A stretch of 64,000 nucleotides of DNA from positions 1,984,001-2,048,000 of the forward strand of contig OY970178.1 in the NCBI GenBank assembly GCA_963707915.1. Reading direction: 5' to 3'. Shown here piece by piece: positions 38,301 through 50,300 of the stretch (position 1 is the stretch's first letter; each line of letters starts with the position of its first letter). Origin of the DNA: Candidatus Eiseniibacteriota bacterium. GTDB taxonomy: Bacteria > Eisenbacteria > RBG-16-71-46. The position numbers are program-made.

Positions 38301-41300
38301 ACTCCGGCATCGACCTGGCCCGGGCCGGGAAGGTGCTGGTGAGGGCGCTCGAGCGGCTGATGAAGCGCATCGCCGAGGAACCGGCGGGCAGGTCCGCCCG
38401 GCCGGCGCTCGAGGAGATCGCGGCCCGCCTCCCCGAGCACCTGCGGCACGCGCACGACGAGTAGGGCGGATCCACGGCGGCGCCGGGCCCACCGCGGCCC
38501 CGGCGCCGTCGCGCACCGCCGGCCACGCCCCCGCGCAGTCTCCGCGGGGGCGCGGCGTTTGGGGAGCGATCCCGCCGCGTGACGCCCGGGGGTGCGCGCC
38601 ACGTGGGCCGCGCACGCCGCCCGGGCGCAGGGTCCCGCCTGCCGCCCCTTCCGGCGCACGCGCGCTCGACCCCGCTCGTCCTGGTCCCGACGCGGACGAG
38701 ACCGTCCCCGGGCGGCCCTTCCCCACCAGACTCAGGCGGCGAGGACGGCGCCGTGCTGGGCAGGTCATACGTTTGGACCATTGCCCCATACGGAGGAGTG
38801 AACGAAGATGAGACTCCACGCGTGATTTGCGCGGGCAGGGCGTAGCGAGCCGGGGCGCAGCGAGTCGAACCGCGCACCGGAGGCGCCAGCACCATCGACA
38901 GGCCGCGGAAACGCAGGCTGAATCAGGGTCACATCTCCGCCGCAGGGGAAGCGCAACGGCGGCAGGAGGTGTGGCCGCTTCTTGTGAGCCGGCGGCCCAT
39001 GGCCGGTCTCGCGTCAGGGGGAGCGCCATGAGCCCGAACCCGCGAAGCACCGCGCGGAACCCGATGACCGCGCCGAAGCCGGCGTCCCGGGGACGCGTGT
39101 TCATCCGCGTGGAACGATGCAAGGGCTGCGCCTTCTGCGTCGAGTTCTGTCCGCAGAAGGTGCTGAAGCTCTCCGCCGACTTCAATCCCAAGGGCTTCCA
39201 CTACCCCGTCGTGGTCAAGGACGAGTGCATCAACTGCACCCTGTGCCTCTCCCTGTGCCCGGACTATGCGATCTACTCGAAACCCGTCGGCGCACGACCG
39301 GCCGCGCAATCGGCCCCCGGCTCGAACGGCGACGGCGTGAAGCGCGAGACGTCCCGCCAAGGAACCCCGTCATGAGCGAGAACCCCGCGGTACTGACCGG
39401 CGAGCACTTCCTCCTGGGCGATCACGCCATCACCGAAGGGGCCCTGGCGGCCGGTTGCCGCTTCTTCGCCGGCTACCCGATCACGCCCTCGACCGAGACG
39501 GCGGAGTTGATGTCCCAGCGCATGCCCGAGGTGGGCGGCCTGTACCTGCAGATGGAGGACGAGATCGCCTCGATCGCCGCCATCCTGGGCGCGGCCTGGG
39601 GCGGGGCGAAGACCATGACCGCGACCTCCGGCCCCGGCTTCTCGCTGATGCTCGAGAACCTCGGGCTCGGCGTCATCACCGAGACCCCCACGGTGATCGT
39701 CAACGTCCAGCGCGGCGGGCCCTCCACCGGGCTGCCGACCCTCATGGCGCAGGGCGACATGATGCAGGCGCGCTGGGGCTCGCACGGCCACTACGAGATC
39801 ATCGCGGTCTCGCCCTGGAACGCGCAGGAGTGCTTCGAGCTCACGCTGCGCGCGTTCAACCTCGCCGAGCGCTACCGGACGCCGGTGCTGGTGCTGGCCG
39901 ACGCGGAGATCGGCCACCTGATCGAGAAGGTCGTGATCCCGCCGGCCGAGAGCCTCGAGATCTGGCACCGCAAGCGGCCGACCGCGAAGCCCGGCGAGTT
40001 CAAGACCTTCCAGCCCGACGACGACCTCATCCCGCCCATGGCGCCGATCGGCGAGGGCTACCGCGTCTTCGTGGACAGCCTCACCCACGACGAGCGCGGC
40101 TACCCGGTGATGACCGCCGAGTGCCAGGCGAAGCTGGTCCAGCGGCTGTGCGACAAGATCACCCACAACCGCTTCGCGATCTACGACAACGTCGAGCGGG
40201 ACGTGGAGGACGCCGAGGTCCTGGTGCTGTCCTACGGCATCTCGGCGCGCACCGCGATGCGCTCGATCGCGCTGGCGAAGGCGCGCGGCCTGAAGGTCGG
40301 CATGCTGCGGCTGCGGACCGTCTGGCCGTTCCCCGACGAGCGCGTGCGGGAGTTGTCCCGGAAGGTCAAGGGCATCGTGGTTCCCGAGCTCAACCTGGGC
40401 CAGATGGTGCGCGAAGTGGAGCGCTGCGCGATCGACACCTGCCAGGTCGCGCTGGTGCCGCATGCCGGCGGCAGCCTGCACGACCCCGAGGCGATCCTCG
40501 AGGCGATCGTCCAGGTGTCCGAGGGCCGGGCGCCGTCGCGGGCGGCCCTGGCGGTCCAGGGGAAGTAGCGATGCCCCGGATCGGCGTCTTCGTCTGTCAC
40601 TGCGGCGAGAACATCGCCCGCACGGTGGACGTCCGCAAGGTGGCCGAGAGCGCCGGGAAGATCCCCGGCGTGGTCTTCTCCACCGACTACACCTACATGT
40701 GCTCCGCGCCCGGCCAGAAACTGGTGATGGACGCCATCCGCGAGCGGGGGCTCACCGGGGTCGTGGTCTCGGCCTGTTCCCCGCAGCTCCACGAGCCCAC
40801 GTTCCGCAACGCCGTGAAGCAGGCGGGCCTCAATCCCTTCATGTGCGAGATGGCGAACATCCGCGAGCAGTGCTCGTGGGTGCACCCGGACCGCGCCGAG
40901 GGCACGGCCAAGGCCTCCCGGATCATGGCCTCGGCGGTGCAGAAGGTGGCGCGCAGCCGCCCGCTGAACGCCTCGGAGGTGCCGGTCACCAAGCGCGCAC
41001 TGGTCATCGGCGGCGGCGTGGCCGGGATCCGCACGGCGCTCGACATCGCCAACGCCGGCCACGAGGTGGTGCTGGTCGAGAAGCAGCCGTCGATCGGCGG
41101 CAACATGGCGCGACTGAGCGAGACGTTCCCGACACTCGACTGCTCCCAGTGCATCCTGACCCCGCTCATGGTCGAGGTCGCGCGCCACCCGCGCATCGAG
41201 CTCATCACCCACGCCGAGGTCGAGGAGGTCTCGGGCTACGTCGGCAACTTCCGCGTCCGCATCCGCCGCCGGCCGTCGTTCGTGCGCGCGGACCAGTGCA

Positions 41301-47300: not shown

Positions 47301-50300
47301 CCTGCGGGAGGCGATCAAGGCGTCGGTGCCGCGCGGCACGGACGAGTTGAACCTGCGCGCCTTCGACGCCGGGCACGAGTACACCGAAGGCCTGGTGGAG
47401 GCCGCGCGATGACGCAGCCGGCCCTCGCGCCCGGCCACGAGGCCACCGACCACGAGGCGGTGGACCGGCCGATCCGCGAGATCGAGCGCAAGAGCGAGCA
47501 GAACCTCTGGGCCTGCTACCAGTGCGGCCGCTGCACCGCGGACTGCCCGTTCTCGCTGACGCCGAGCCTGGCGGTGCGGCTCCTGCAACTCGGGCAGCTG
47601 GAGGCCGCGCGCAGCCTGGCCACGACCTGGGACTGCGCGAGCTGCTACTCCTGCCAGACCGGGTGCCCGAAGGGCGTCAGCCCGGCGCGGGTGATGAAGG
47701 CACTGCGCGCGCTCGACGGCGGGCAGATGCCCGCGGTCTTCACGCAGCCTGCCGAGCTGCTGGGCCGCAACGGCGACCCGCTCCCGCTCTCCGCGCGCCG
47801 GCCCCGCTGGACGCCGCGCGCCGGCCTCGCCGCGTGGACCCGGCGGATGCGCGCCCGCGCGCTGGCCTCGATGCCCCTGGCGTTCCCGCTGATGAGCGCG
47901 GTCGCGCCGCTCAGCAACCGGATGATGAAGCTGCCCGGCGCGCGGCAACTCGCCCACCTGGTCCTGGGCGTGCACCGCGACCGCAAGCTCCCCACCTTCG
48001 CCGCCCGCTCGTTCCCGGCCTGGTTCGCGACCCACCCGCCGCTCGGCGACGGCCGTCGCGGCGCCGTGATCCTGTTCCACGACGAGTTCATGGACTACAA
48101 CTACCCCCAGACCGGCATCGCGGTGACCGAGATCCTCGAGCGCGCCGGCTACCGGGTCGAGCTGTTCCGCGGCGCCTGCTGCGGCCGGCCGATGATCTCG
48201 AAGGGACTCGAGGAGGGCGCCTCCGCCTGCGCCGTGAAGAACGTCCCCATCCTGCACGAGGCGGCCAGCCGCGGCGCGTACATCGTGGGCTGCGAGCCGT
48301 CCTGCCTGCTCACACTCCGCGACGAGTACCTGCACCTCGTGCCGCAGGGCCTCGAGGCGCAGGCCCGGGCGGTCGCCCGCCAGGCGTTCCTGATCGACGA
48401 GTTCCTGGTCATGCTCCACGCGAAGGGCGAGCTCGAGCTCACCTTCCGCGCACCCGACACGCTGCGGCCCGTGCTGTTCCACGGGCACTGCCACCAGAAG
48501 GCCTTCGCGGACGCGTCGAAGAGCGTCGCACTGCTGGAGCTCGCCGGCTACGACGTGGAGTTCGTCAACGCGGCGTGCTGCGGCATGGCGGGCCTGCACG
48601 GCTTCGAGAAGCGGCATTTCGAGGCCTCGCGCGCTGCCTGCGAGCGCTCGGTGCTCCCGGCGGTACGTTCGCGGCCCGACGCCGACCTCGTCATCATGGG
48701 TGTGTCCTGCCGCCAGCAGATGGAGCAGTTCACCGAGCGCCCGGTCCGCCACCTCGTCGAGGCCGTGCGCGACGCCCTCGCCTGATCCGCCGCGGCGACC
48801 GTCAGCCGGACGGGCGCCGCGGCGCGTGGATCGCGCGGTCGAGGGCCTGCAGGAAGCGCGAACGGTCCCGCGGGTCGAACGGCGGCGGACCGCCCGCCTC
48901 GATCCCGGCGCCGCGCATCTCGGCGAGCAGGTTCCGCGTCGCCAGCGCATCGCCGATGTTCGCCTCGGTGAAGGGCCGGCCGGTCGTGCCCAGCACGCCG
49001 GCGCCGGCGGCGAGGCAGCGGGCGGCGAGCGGGATGTCCGCCGTGACCACCAGGTCGCCGGGCGCGACCCGCGCCGCGATCCAGTCGTCCGCCGCGTCGA
49101 ACCCCCTGTCCACGACCTCGAGCACGACGTCCGGACCGCCCGGGACCCGCATCCAGGAGCCCGCCACGAAGGTCACCCCGAGGCCGTAGCGCTGCGCGAC
49201 CCGGACGACCTCCGGCTTCACCGGGCAGGCGTCGGCGTCAACGTAGATGCGCACCGCCCTGCCCTCCCGGGTCCGGGATCCGGCCGCCGCCCGGCCCCGC
49301 GACGCTCCCCCGCATCCCTCAGGCCGGCGCGTCGAGCGACCGAGCCGCCTCGCGCAGCACCTCGGCCGAGCGCAGCAGGTCCGCCCGCTCCGCGTCCGTC
49401 ATCCCGGGCTCGAGCACGTGCTCGGCCCCGGTGGGGCTCACCACCGTCGGCAGCGACAGCGCCACGTCGCTGAGCCCCAGCGCGCCCTCCTGGACCCGCG
49501 CCACCGTCAGCACGCGCCGGGCACCCCGCAGCATCCACTTGATCAGCGTCGCGGTGACCAGCCCGATGGCGTGGGTGGTCGCCCCCTTGCGCCGGATGAC
49601 CTCGAGGCCGGCGCCGCGGACCTCCTCGGTCACCCGCGCCTCGCGCGCGGCGTCCCAGCCGGGCCAATCGCGCAGCGGCAGGCCGCCCACCCGCACGCCC
49701 GACCACAGCACCACCTCGGTCGCGCCGTGCTCGCCGATGACCTGGCCGTGGATCGAGCGCGGGTCGAGGTCGAGCTCGCGCCCCAGCACCTGCCGCAGCC
49801 GCGCGGAGTCGAGCATCGTGCCGGTGCCGATCACGCGCGCGGGCGGGAAGCCGGTGGCCCGCGTCATCACCAGCGTCATGACGTCCACCGGGTTCGTCAC
49901 CACGACCACGATGCCGCGCCCGCCGCGCAACTGCCGGCCGATGTCGGTCACGATGCCCGCGTTGGTCGCCAGCAACTGGAGCCGCGACTGCCCCGGGGCG
50001 CGGCCGACGCCCGCCGTGACCACCACCGCGTCGCAATCGAGCATGTCCGCGATGGTGCCCGCGCGCACCCGCGCCGTGGGATAGAACGCCGAGCCCTGGA
50101 GGAGGTCCATGGCCTCGCCCTCGGCGACGTCCGGTCGCGCGTCGTGCAGGACCAGCTCGCCCGCCGCGCCGAAGTGGAGCAGCGACAGGGCGACGCTCAC
50201 GCCGACGCCGCCGGTACCGATGATGCCGACCTTCACGCGCATGGCTGGCTCCCCATCCGGTCGAGGTGTGCGGGCACGTCCGGCCGGGAACATAGCCCAG

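What a model noticed while it worked through the whole genome (the two positions that open the first line are those of the whole stretch)
39028..48785. 2-oxoacid:ferredoxin oxidoreductase operon interrupted by an HdrA-MvhD-FlxB/A-like module and closed by an HdrD-like gen [...]
Nine overlapping or abutting plus-strand genes g01664-g01672 read korD(ferredoxin)-korA-hdrA-mvhD(extended, 467 aa)-hydB/flxB-like-hydG/flxA-like (NAD(P)-binding)-korB-korC-hdrD-like (2 CCG domains). An Flx/Hdr-type flavin-based electron-bifurcation module thus sits inside the genes of a 2-oxoglutarate/2-oxoacid:ferredoxin oxidoreductase, which suggests one complex coupling 2-oxoacid oxidation or synthesis to NAD(P)H and a thiol/disulfide-type acceptor.
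Evidence so far: Gene spacing -14 to +12 nt over the whole unit; Swiss-Prot best hits KorA 52%, KorB 46%, KorC 48% (methanogen 2-oxoglutarate synthase), HdrA 50%, MvhD 52%, sulfhydrogenase beta/gamma 31-33%. The HdrA-MvhD-HydB-HydG core is common: of 40 metagenome loci >=9 kb with a relative of the extended MvhD, 40 have HydB and HydG next to it, 37 HdrA, 16 the HdrD-like gene, 0 any kor gene within 6 kb. neighbours.tsv: FlpD within two genes of POR_N in >=228 genomes, Fer4_22 near TPP_enzyme_C in >=147, one other genome of the order.
(Added by a program. Inside this text positions count along the whole contig: contig position 1,984,001 is position 1 of the stretch shown here. "Call 12" and the like, gene names such as g00115 and contig names such as C1 are that model's own, and its searches are not shown. 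The text may have been shortened before it was handed on; [...] marks where a part breaks off. The agent that wrote the report below was given it as the finding of a first reader that could run no searches.)

Follow-up and report, generated by a model that had tools for sequence, protein, structure and literature searches.

The report
Split kor operon with Hdr-Flx module
A nine-gene operon mixes the genes of a 2-oxoglutarate-type ferredoxin oxidoreductase with an NAD(P)H-fed electron-splitting Hdr/Flx module; the same layout recurs in many bacterial phyla, so it is probably one redox machine, an idea published in 2019 for a related cluster but never tested at the bench.

Summary
Nine tightly packed plus-strand genes (39028-48785) read korD-korA-hdrA-mvhD(extended)-flxB/hydB-flxA/hydG-korB-korC-hdrD-like.

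All 13 public KorA relatives at 68% identity or more, plus one at 61%, have hdrA directly after korA. All 9 contigs that reach korB keep the full order, under at least eight other phylum labels. These KorA form one clade (SH-aLRT 99). Seven genes share pairwise distance patterns.

Sister loci replace the fused HdrD with hdrC-hdrB plus thiol:fumarate-reductase-like genes. Archaeal relatives couple korDABC-hdrA-mvhD to a [NiFe] hydrogenase.

Best reading (about 0.5): NAD(P)H electrons are split at HdrA. The low-potential half goes through KorD to the TPP site. The high-potential half goes to a GlpC/LutA/EtfD-like CCG subunit.

Rubin-Blum et al. 2019 proposed this principle for a kor-flx-hdr-tfr cluster in tubeworm symbionts. 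I found no biochemistry. This scan met the same split-kor operon before on other DNA (e1-5287795).

This is a new variant of a known but untested kind. Binding, substrate, direction and acceptor remain open.

The parts
39028..39375 (+). korD: delta (ferredoxin) subunit with two CxxCxxCxxxCP motifs and an N-terminal arm carrying an R-x-P ... R-G motif
   Evidence: Pfam Fer4_7 6.7e-12. Best NCBIfam is OGOR_delta, 65 bits, below its cut-off of 125. R10, P12, R21, G22 and all 8 Cys are invariant in 11 orthologues. The arm is absent from most plain KorD sequences.
39372..40568 (+). korA: alpha subunit of a four-subunit 2-oxoacid:ferredoxin oxidoreductase
   Evidence: POR_N 3.7e-70 and PFOR_II. NF006412, 2-oxoacid:acceptor oxidoreductase alpha, scores 547.9 bits, above its cut-off of 411. 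Closest solved chains are 1yd7_A, 8ys5_A and 6n2n_A.
40571..42577 (+). hdrA: full-length bifurcation-type flavoprotein (N-terminal, FAD, inserted-ferredoxin and C-terminal-ferredoxin parts)
   Evidence: Aligns over residues 2-662 with 5odc_A residues 4-649, E 1e-205, with cysteine motifs aligned. There is a 14-residue insert relative to 5odc_A between C290 and C307 in the inserted ferredoxin part. The insert is present in 8 of 10 split-operon HdrA examined.
42574..43977 (+). Extended mvhD (FlxD fused to an FlxC-like Fe-S part)
   Evidence: FlpD 2.4e-47 at residues 21-142. MvhD chains 7bkb_F and 5odc_D match residues 14-145. Residues 330-458 match the C-terminal Fe-S part of FdhB chains of Fdh-Hdr complexes (7bkb_E, 8rvu_E, 9t1s_M).
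43977..45047 (+). flxB/hydB-like Fe-S subunit
   Evidence: Fer4_22 3.4e-28. Sulfhydrogenase beta models score below their cut-offs. 9nez_B, sulfhydrogenase 1 beta, matches at 2.6e-38.
45034..45921 (+). flxA/hydG-like NAD(P)H-binding flavoprotein with a [2Fe-2S] site
   Evidence: NAD_binding_1 and DHODB_Fe-S_bind. The PRK08345, HydG and AsrB models score below their cut-offs.
45934..46833 (+). korB: TPP-binding beta subunit with a clade-specific acidic N-terminal extension of about 22 residues
   Evidence: TPP_enzyme_C 3.3e-31. The extension is present in 9 of 9 split-operon KorB and absent from most of the 11 plain KorB aligned. 8ys5_C matches at 1.1e-63.
46843..47412 (+). korC: gamma subunit
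   Evidence: POR 4.1e-30. NF006323 scores 213.7 bits, just below its cut-off of 235.
47409..48785 (+). hdrD-like terminal subunit: HdrC-like 2x[4Fe-4S] N-terminus fused to two CCG-type cysteine sets (GlpC/LutA-like)
   Evidence: CCG 2.7e-11 and Fer4_8. GlpC model PRK11168 gives 1.1e-55 over residues 145-457, below its cut-off. HdrC chains match residues 25-128 only. The fold is nearest LutA (TMt 0.76) and EtfD, then HdrB (TMt 0.53-0.60). Cysteine pattern; no transmembrane-grade segment (maximum KD 1.46).
38465..39027 (.). 563-bp upstream intergenic space, the presumed promoter region of the operon
   Evidence: No consensus sigma-70 or sigma-54-like site was found. The space is bounded by the ORF ending at 38464.

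Best explanation
The nine genes encode one flavin-based electron-bifurcating assembly of the Kor-Hdr-Flx kind. FlxA (hydG-like) takes a hydride from NAD(P)H. Electrons then pass through its [2Fe-2S], the Fe-S clusters of FlxB and the C-terminal Fe-S part of the extended MvhD, and the MvhD [2Fe-2S], to the FAD of HdrA. There the electron pair is split. The low-potential electron leaves through HdrA's inserted ferredoxin domain to KorD, then to the KorB cluster and the TPP site. This drives reductive carboxylation of an acyl-CoA, most likely succinyl-CoA to 2-oxoglutarate, without free ferredoxin. The high-potential electron leaves through HdrA's C-terminal ferredoxin domain to the HdrC-like clusters and CCG sites of the HdrD-like subunit, and on to an unidentified acceptor (a disulfide or a quinone). 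The system should be reversible: 2-oxoacid oxidation plus a high-potential donor would give NAD(P)H. Shown here: gene content, cofactor motifs, and conserved split order and co-inheritance across phyla. Inferred: physical complex, electron path, bifurcation, substrate, direction and acceptor.
For: Domain and cofactor inventory is complete, with no subunit left over. Gene junctions are overlapping or short, and they stay short in relatives: KorA-HdrA and HydG-KorB gaps are 24 nt or less in 15 of 16 junctions of 8 loci (coordinates). 14 of the 80 best KorA loci have hdrA after korA. These include all 13 loci with 68% identity or more. 9 of 9 contigs that reach korB keep the full order. 5 of 6 metagenome KorB loci are the same type. 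The split-operon KorA rows (15) form one clade, SH-aLRT 99, apart from the genome's own plain KorA2. Pairwise distances of seven genes correlate, r 0.69-0.94 with the near-duplicate removed. Kor-side features are specific to the clade: a KorB N-terminal extension and a KorD N-terminal arm. Independent recurrences of Kor with HdrA use other input and output modules: hdrC-hdrB-TfrA-like genes, and [NiFe] hydrogenase in Bathyarchaeia. From print: the same principle was proposed, with co-expression data in Endoriftia (PMC6315080, whole text and supplement passages; PMC11636981, passages).
Against: There is no direct evidence of binding, activity or expression for this operon. KorD is an ordinary delta subunit that could equally serve free ferredoxin. 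The genome has three further OFOR loci, an OGDH E1, a second HdrA-MvhD set and three [NiFe] hydrogenases, so the operon is not needed for any obvious single pathway. Only one Citrate_synt-domain gene was found, so no ACL of the known type and no classical rTCA context. The operon occurs in only 1 of 7 other genomes of the genus, so it is accessory. 2-oxoglutarate specificity is not established: the OGOR-specific NCBIfam models score below their cut-offs. The CCG subunit carries four-cysteine sets, unlike the five-cysteine CCG motif of HdrB as I recall it.
Confidence: 0.5

Rival explanations
1. Co-regulated but separate enzymes. An Flx-Hdr-type NAD(P)H:ferredoxin/acceptor oxidoreductase and an ordinary Kor are expressed together and communicate through a soluble ferredoxin. 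Gene interleaving reflects co-expression, not a supercomplex.
For: KorD keeps the standard two-cluster ferredoxin-like form. [quoted passage not shown] The HdrA-FlxDCBA core works without kor in 16 of 17 regions of the same phylum.
Against: Splitting korDA from korBC around five foreign genes is kept in 9 of 9 informative contigs across phyla. This is hard to explain by co-regulation alone. KorB and KorD carry clade-specific extensions. No ferredoxin gene lies in the operon.
Confidence: 0.3
2. A non-bifurcating NAD(P)+-linked 2-oxoacid dehydrogenase. HdrA and the Fe-S subunits only wire Kor to the FlxA flavoprotein, as in the NADH-dependent phenylglyoxylate dehydrogenase PadEFGHI. The CCG subunit is an accessory or regulatory redox sensor.
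For: FlxA gives an NAD(P)-binding exit. Pad subunit models give weak hits to KorA, KorB and KorC (8e-16, 2e-09, 1.4e-16). The host has an oxidative TCA set: OGDH E1, citrate synthase and malate dehydrogenase.
Against: HdrA is full length, with every part of the methanogen bifurcating subunit. A CCG acceptor module is always present, fused or as hdrC+hdrB. Sister loci add fumarate-reductase-like genes, which fit a third redox partner.
Confidence: 0.12
3. A recent, functionally uncoupled insertion of an Hdr-Flx cassette into a kor operon.
For: The operon is present in only G000 and G135 among the genus genomes searched. Flanking synteny differs in G137.
Against: The same split order occurs in at least eight other phylum labels with one KorA clade. 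G+C is the same as the flanks. All nine genes are intact at 78-95% identity between G000 and G135, as high as or higher than the neighbouring mdh at 83%.
Confidence: 0.03

Closest known systems
kor-flx-hdr-tfr rTCA gene cluster of tubeworm symbionts (Ca. Endoriftia, Escarpia symbiont), Thioflavicoccus mobilis and an aquifer gammaproteobacterial MAG (Rubin-Blum, Dubilier and Kleiner 2019, PMC6315080; Endoriftia co-expression, PMC11636981; Bipolaricaulia UBA7950, bioRxiv 10.1101/2023.11.26.568696)
   Same: Four-subunit Kor genes are interleaved on one strand with hdrA and flx genes. The proposed function is the same: NADH electrons bifurcated directly to OGOR and to a high-potential branch. Both are untested biochemically.
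   Different: There, KorABCD sits as a block 'in between HdrA and HdrBC' (PMC11636981, legend passage), with tfrAB, aclAB and other rTCA genes around it. Here kor itself is split (korDA | hdrA-flxDCBA | korBC). HdrB, HdrC and Tfr are replaced by one GlpC/LutA-like protein. No ACL-type gene was found, and the host also has OGDH. I could not fetch the gammaproteobacterial loci to compare sequences.
FlxABCD-HdrABC of Desulfovibrio vulgaris (Ramos et al. 2015, cited in PMC6315080 and PMC7382037; not read by me)
   Same: The HdrA, MvhD-type FlxD, Fe-S FlxB/C and NAD(P)H-binding FlxA module is shared. Kor-free hdrC-hdrA-mvhDx-hydB-hydG strings exist in other classes of the same phylum.
   Different: That system uses free ferredoxin and DsrC (as summarised in the PMC6315080 supplement). 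Here no DsrC was found, the FlxC-like part is fused to FlxD, HdrBC is replaced, and Kor is built in.
Fdh-Hdr-Fmd supercomplex of Methanospirillum hungatei (PDB 7BKB) and Mvh/Elp-Hdr complexes (5ODC, 8RVU)
   Same: HdrA, MvhD and the FdhB-like Fe-S part match these chains strongly. As I recall that work, in 7BKB the low-potential electrons go directly to a CO2-reducing enzyme instead of free ferredoxin. This is the working analogy for Kor here.
   Different: The donors there are formate or H2, the acceptor is CoM-S-S-CoB through HdrBC, and the CO2-reducing partner is formylmethanofuran dehydrogenase, not a TPP enzyme.
HdrAL/POR cluster Sfum_0012-0018 of Syntrophobacter fumaroxidans (PMC5947623, one passage read)
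   Same: An Hdr-like flavoprotein set is encoded with a 2-oxoacid:ferredoxin oxidoreductase.
   Different: It is a different Hdr type (HdrL) with no Flx module. It was not detected in that proteome, and I did not compare gene order.
FixABCX / EtfABCX NADH:quinone+ferredoxin bifurcation (recalled, not checked here)
   Same: This would be the functional analogue if the GlpC/LutA/EtfD-like subunit delivers the high-potential electron to quinone.
   Different: It uses an ETF flavoprotein chassis, not HdrA, and its low-potential electron goes to free ferredoxin or flavodoxin.

Membership tests
Four-subunit 2-oxoacid:ferredoxin oxidoreductase (KorABCD type) | Alpha subunit with POR_N and PFOR_II domains | tested here: met
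   NF006412 scores 547.9 bits, above its cut-off of 411.
Four-subunit 2-oxoacid:ferredoxin oxidoreductase (KorABCD type) | Beta subunit with a TPP-binding domain and the cysteines of its [4Fe-4S] cluster | tested here: met
   TPP_enzyme_C 3.3e-31. The WCPGCG, GIGC and SPCP cysteines are conserved in the alignment. Their assignment as cluster ligands is from recall.
Four-subunit 2-oxoacid:ferredoxin oxidoreductase (KorABCD type) | Gamma (POR) subunit and delta (2x[4Fe-4S]) subunit | tested here: met
Four-subunit 2-oxoacid:ferredoxin oxidoreductase (KorABCD type) | Specificity for 2-oxoglutarate | tested here: inconclusive
   OGOR-specific models score below their cut-offs: NF007206 361 vs 579; NF007207 255 vs 364; NF042987 65 vs 125. 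Indirect support: sister loci carry TfrA-like fumarate reductase genes.
FlxABCD-HdrABC | Full-length HdrA with FAD and ferredoxin domains | tested here: met
FlxABCD-HdrABC | MvhD-type FlxD, Fe-S FlxB/FlxC, and NAD(P)H-binding FlxA | tested here: met
   The equation of subunits with FlxA-D is by domain content, not by comparison with the D. vulgaris proteins.
FlxABCD-HdrABC | Separate HdrB (two five-cysteine CCG motifs) and HdrC | tested here: not met
   There is one fused protein. The HdrB models are absent from its NCBIfam hit list. No HdrB chain was found by sequence. The fold is nearer LutA and EtfD than HdrB. The cysteine sets have four members. The five-cysteine rule is recalled.
FlxABCD-HdrABC | DsrC as the disulfide acceptor | tested here: not met
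   PF04358 has no match in the genome (94.8% complete). The control rang in E. coli.
Published kor-flx-hdr-tfr rTCA cluster | kor genes interleaved with hdrA and flx genes on one strand | tested here: met
Published kor-flx-hdr-tfr rTCA cluster | tfrAB in the cluster | tested here: not met
   None lies in 39028-48785. TfrA-like hits lie elsewhere in the genome. TfrA-like genes are present in sister loci L025, L028 and L042.
Published kor-flx-hdr-tfr rTCA cluster | ATP citrate lyase / rTCA context | tested here: inconclusive
   The PF16114 search found nothing, but its controls were silent too. Only one Citrate_synt-domain gene was found, of ordinary size.
Published kor-flx-hdr-tfr rTCA cluster | Co-transcription | not testable with these tools
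   No RNA run holds the stretch.

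The most novel reading that the evidence does not exclude
In the fused-HdrD subtype, the ancestral HdrCB plus thiol:fumarate-reductase end has been swapped for a GlpC/LutA/EtfD-like CCG subunit that hands the high-potential electron to the quinone pool. The operon would then encode an HdrA-based NAD(P)H:quinone + 2-oxoacid-synthase bifurcating enzyme. 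This is a Fix/EtfABCX-like job done on an Hdr chassis, with a TPP carboxylating enzyme hard-wired as the low-potential acceptor. It would let respiring, non-rTCA bacteria of soils and sediments make 2-oxoglutarate (or run a reversed oxidative TCA) from NAD(P)H without ferredoxin.
Probability: 0.2. Interest if true: 0.75.

Novelty: new variant of a known kind. Interest (0 to 1): 0.5.

Why it matters
OFORs need electrons near -500 mV (value recalled). How non-phototrophic bacteria supply them for 2-oxoglutarate or pyruvate synthesis is only partly understood. A hard-wired NAD(P)H-fed bifurcating Kor would be a ferredoxin-free route for a key CO2-fixing step. It would extend to bacteria and to a TPP enzyme the principle seen in the methanogen Fdh-Hdr-Fmd supercomplex.

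The compact nine-gene form found here has no neighbouring pathway genes and occurs under many phylum labels (Acidobacteriota, Actinomycetota, Rokuibacteriota, Chloroflexota, Bacteroidota and others). It is the smallest self-contained version, and so a practical target for expression, assay and cryo-EM. Its value is lowered because the idea has been in print since 2019 and nothing here goes beyond sequence inference.

Tried and rejected
1. Complex prediction on HdrA (alignment A1) with KorD (alignment A2) gave no verdict. The runs scored 0.09, 0.36 and 0.24 (median 0.24) against a mark of 0.32, and the controls were not run. This counts neither for nor against binding.

2. The look-up of sequencing runs listed no RNA holder. 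All 24 DNA rows hold small shares, 0.13 or less. It says nothing on expression or habitat, and I did not lay reads.

3. Promoter, terminator and sigma-54-like scans were uninformative (40 matches against 57.5 expected).

4. I looked for an 'empty site' in genus relatives that lack the operon. The mdh contigs of G141 and G137 are 4.6 and 6.3 kb, and G137 shows a different local order. Neither insertion nor deletion can be read from them.

5. The PF16114 (ACL) search is void because its controls were silent.

6. I asked whether Kor-linked HdrA of bacteria and Bathyarchaeia share a specific HdrA lineage. Overall identity argues against it: 48-50% to Bathyarchaeia against 56-58% to kor-free Flx-Hdr HdrA of the phylum. 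Only a short 'W-R-K-A-I-Y' stretch of the inserted ferredoxin part is shared, so I dropped the idea.

7. The HdrA insert is not universal: L039 and L047 lack it. I do not use it as a clade marker.

8. The structure model of the HdrD-like protein is only medium quality (mean pLDDT 64; the N-terminal 200 residues are poor). Only the fold ranking of the CCG half is used.

9. Literature searches that found nothing relevant.

Full report
OBSERVATION. The window has about 72% G+C, so long spurious ORFs abound. Choosing the frames with domain support gives nine + strand genes from 39028 to 48785. All start with ATG, and the junctions are -4, +2, -4, -1, -14, +12, +9 and -4 nt.

Pfam and NCBIfam give the following:
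- KorD: two-cluster ferredoxin.
- KorA: POR_N+PFOR_II. NF006412 scores 547.9 bits, above its cut-off.
- HdrA: 668 aa.
- MvhD-extended: FlpD at residues 21-142 plus C-terminal Fe-S.
- HydB/FlxB-like: Fer4_22.
- HydG/FlxA-like: NAD_binding_1 plus a [2Fe-2S] domain.
- KorB: TPP_enzyme_C.
- KorC: POR.
- A 458-aa protein with an HdrC-like dicluster N-terminus and CCG cysteines.

A 563-bp intergenic space lies upstream. Downstream, a convergent DUF188 gene (48802-49254) and malate dehydrogenase (49319-50383) close the unit. No promoter-like or terminator-like site lies inside it (a weak test here).

THE PARTS. HdrA aligns end to end with the HdrA of the solved Mvh-Hdr complex (5odc_A residues 4-649, E 1e-205), and the cysteine motifs of all parts align. 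The extended MvhD is an MvhD (residues 14-145 against 7bkb_F and 5odc_D). Its C-terminus (330-458) matches the Fe-S end of the FdhB subunits that sit next to MvhD in the Fdh-Hdr complexes. I read it as a FlxD-FlxC-type fusion. FlxB matches sulfhydrogenase beta (9nez_B).

The last gene is not simply HdrC+HdrB.
- Its best NCBIfam models are GlpC (1.1e-55, residues 145-457), YdiJ, the quinone-type lactate dehydrogenase subunit LdhH, and GlcF. HdrB and DsrK models are not in the list.
- By sequence, only HdrC chains match, at residues 25-128.
- In a medium-quality model (pLDDT 64; the CCG half is 80-90), the fold is nearest LutA (TMt 0.76) and M. smegmatis EtfD, then HdrB (TMt 0.53-0.60).
- It has eight invariant ferredoxin-type cysteines. 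It also has two four-cysteine sets: C257/C258/C295/C299, with C295 present in 7 of 8 orthologues, and C361/C390/C391/C434, present in 8 of 8.
- It has no transmembrane-grade segment.

THE GENOME. The window lies in a 3.62-Mb single-contig genome that is 94.8% complete. The near-identical named relative L021 is labelled Candidatus Eisenbacteria. The genome also holds:
- a plain korDABC 12 kb downstream on the - strand (window about 60520-63425, 42-55% identity);
- a third OFOR locus and a fourth, KorA-like, locus;
- a second hdrA-mvhD;
- a second hydBG;
- an OGDH E1;
- a heme-copper oxidase gene;
- three [NiFe] hydrogenases;
- one citrate-synthase-domain gene, hence no ACL of the known build;
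- no DsrC.
So the host is not an obvious rTCA autotroph.

IS THE ARRANGEMENT A ONE-OFF? Searched through MvhD it looks so. In 206 genomes of the phylum, 50 have some MvhD match, but a full-length match to the 467-aa form occurs only in G000 and G135. G135 is 1 of 7 other genomes of the genus. Of 17 regions fetched around the best extended-MvhD matches, only G135 has kor. Fourteen of the 17 instead show an HdrC-like gene upstream of hdrA-mvhDx-hydB-hydG, an ordinary Flx-Hdr string.

Searched through KorA, the picture reverses. Of 539 confirmed relatives in genome contigs the best 80 were kept.
- 14 of these 80 have hdrA directly after korA: L021-L025, L027, L028, L033, L034, L038, L039, L046, L047 and L051.
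- These include all 13 loci with KorA identity of 68% or more, plus L038 at 61%. No plain kor locus exceeds 61%.
- All 9 contigs that reach korB keep hdrA-mvhDx-hydB-hydG-korB-korC in that order.
- The record titles name Eisenbacteria, Krumholzibacteriia, Acidobacteriota, Actinomycetota (three records), 'Deltaproteobacteria' (two records), Rokuibacteriota, Armatimonadota, SAR202/Chloroflexota and Bacteroidota.
- A KorB scan of metagenome contigs gave 6 loci. The 5 with 64-92% identity are the same type, with hydG upstream in 3 of 3 that reach that far and the fused hdrD downstream in 5 of 5. The sixth, at 45%, is plain.

A KorA tree was built from 77 rows; 6 of the 80 loci were dropped by a 300-479 aa length filter. 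It puts all 15 split-operon rows in one clade (SH-aLRT 99). The genome's own plain KorA2 falls in the sister clade with Acidobacteriota (quick LG+G4 search; the loci were selected by similarity to the query).

Pairwise distances of KorA, HdrA, MvhDx, HydB, HydG, KorB and KorC across nine loci correlate at r 0.82-0.94, or 0.69-0.94 without the near-duplicate. The block therefore travels as a unit. Kin are not independent, so this is descriptive only.

The Kor subunits of the clade carry their own marks. KorB has a roughly 22-residue acidic N-terminal extension (9 of 9 in the clade; absent from most of 11 plain KorB). KorD has an N-terminal arm with R-x-P ... R-G, invariant in 11 orthologues. 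Similar arms occur in the Bathyarchaeia and Fraserbacteria KorD that also precede hdrA. G+C across the operon equals the flanks.

A MODULAR FAMILY. Within the split clade there are two endings.
- A fused GlpC-like HdrD: window, L021, L027, L033, L046, L051, and the 5 metagenome loci.
- hdrC + hdrB followed by a [2Fe-2S]/[4Fe-4S] protein (L025, L028, L039); where the contig continues and was checked (L025, L028), the next gene is TfrA-like fumarate reductase flavoprotein.

Outside the clade, 7 of the other 66 loci have hdrA right after an unsplit kor. In L026 (Bathyarchaeia), the one such locus whose downstream genes I scanned, hdrA is followed by mvhD-mvhG-mvhA, a [NiFe] hydrogenase. L042 (Fraserbacteria) continues with hdrC-hdrB-FeS-tfrA-tfrB-like genes, and L096 with mvhD and FeS-tfrA-like genes.

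So Kor is repeatedly joined to HdrA-MvhD. The electron-input modules are exchangeable (NAD(P)H or H2), and so are the high-potential ends (HdrBC with Tfr, or the GlpC-like protein).

HOW IT MOST LIKELY WORKS. Every subunit finds a place in one electron path.
- Input: NAD(P)H to FlxA (FAD, [2Fe-2S]), to FlxB clusters, to the Fe-S end and [2Fe-2S] of the extended MvhD, to HdrA FAD.
- Low-potential branch: from the FAD through HdrA's inserted ferredoxin domain to KorD, KorB and TPP.
- High-potential branch: through HdrA's C-terminal ferredoxin domain to the HdrC-like clusters and CCG sites of the last subunit.

The port assignment follows the solved Mvh-Hdr and Fdh-Hdr-Fmd complexes as I recall them; it is inference here. 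With recalled potentials (2-oxoglutarate/succinyl-CoA+CO2 about -500 mV, NAD(P)H -320 mV, disulfide or menaquinone about -140 to -70 mV), the favourable direction is NAD(P)H-driven reductive carboxylation. The reverse (confurcation) is possible. 2-Oxoglutarate is the likeliest substrate, given the best though sub-threshold NCBIfam models and the Tfr genes in sister loci, but it is not shown.

The acceptor is open. The absence of DsrC and the GlpC/YdiJ/LdhH/LutA/EtfD affinities make quinone a serious alternative to a disulfide.

WHAT IS KNOWN. Rubin-Blum, Dubilier and Kleiner 2019 (PMC6315080) described korABCD and tfrAB interspersed with flxABCD-hdrABC in rTCA clusters of tubeworm symbionts, Thioflavicoccus mobilis and an aquifer MAG. 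[quoted passage not shown] I read the whole text and passages of supplement Text S1.

[quoted passage not shown] A 2023 preprint notes the cluster in Bipolaricaulia (passages). An 'HdrAL/POR' cluster is mentioned for Syntrophobacter fumaroxidans (PMC5947623, one passage).

Eight full-text searches found no biochemical test and no description of the split-kor form or of Eisenbacteria carrying it. The library lacks most subscription journals, so a review of HdrA gene contexts could have been missed.

This scan met the same split-kor nine-gene operon on another genome (e1-5287795) and many other Kor-Hdr variants. Those notes agree with what I found independently.

VERDICT. This is a real, conserved, horizontally spread operon, not an accident of insertion. 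It is a variant of a published but biochemically untested kind. It differs in three ways: kor is split, Hdr-Flx is embedded, and a GlpC/LutA-like acceptor subunit replaces HdrBC+Tfr in a host without an rTCA signature. Complex formation, substrate, direction and acceptor are unshown.

Noticed in passing
window 60520-63425 (- strand): A second, unsplit korD-korA-korB-korC operon lies 12 kb downstream, 42-55% identical to the split one. Its KorA falls in the sister clade with Acidobacteriota.
   Followed up: partly
L026:9720-17380 (also L029, L030, L031, L037): Bathyarchaeia contigs carry korDABC directly followed by hdrA. In L026 this continues with mvhD and then [NiFe] hydrogenase small and large subunits, an H2-fed counterpart of the NAD(P)H-fed operon.
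   Followed up: partly
L042:9660-19854 and L096:49-7480: Fraserbacteria (L042) and an unnamed bacterium (L096) have korDABC (or korABCD) followed by hdrA with mvhD fused (L042) or separate (L096). L042 continues with hdrC-hdrB, an Fe-S protein and TfrA/TfrB-like genes; L096 with an Fe-S protein and a TfrA-like gene. This resembles the published kor-hdr-tfr layout.
   Followed up: partly
G000:C1:1399300-1400573 (outside the window): The only COX1 (heme-copper oxidase) match is spread over five pieces that alternate between reading frames. This suggests frameshifts or assembly errors in that gene.
   Followed up: no
G000:C1:2138950-2151306 (outside the window): A second Hdr region holds a [NiFe] hydrogenase, hdrB, hdrC, mvhD, an hdrA read in two frames with one TGA inside the match, and two adjacent TfrB/HdrD-like CCG genes. 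The TGA could be a selenocysteine codon or a break.
   Followed up: no
window 50442-53753 (- strand): A 1103-aa protein combines a lamin-tail domain, PLD-like domains and a C-terminal Por_Secre_tail (type IX secretion sorting signal).
   Followed up: no
window 33498-38464: Three large ORFs with high third-position G+C have no Pfam match: 33498-35246 (-), 36008-37372 (+) and 37481-38464 (+). They lie just upstream of the operon.
   Followed up: no
L108 (G137:C314) against window 49284-55812: In a genus relative without the operon, mdh lies between the homologues of window 53943-55812 and the PLD-like gene. This is a different local order from G000.
   Followed up: partly
L051:9705-19000: An Actinomycetes contig of a 2.4-Mb assembly carries the split operon, but with most genes broken into several frame-shifted pieces, a long tree branch and odd composition. 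It is either a decaying copy or long-read indel errors.
   Followed up: no
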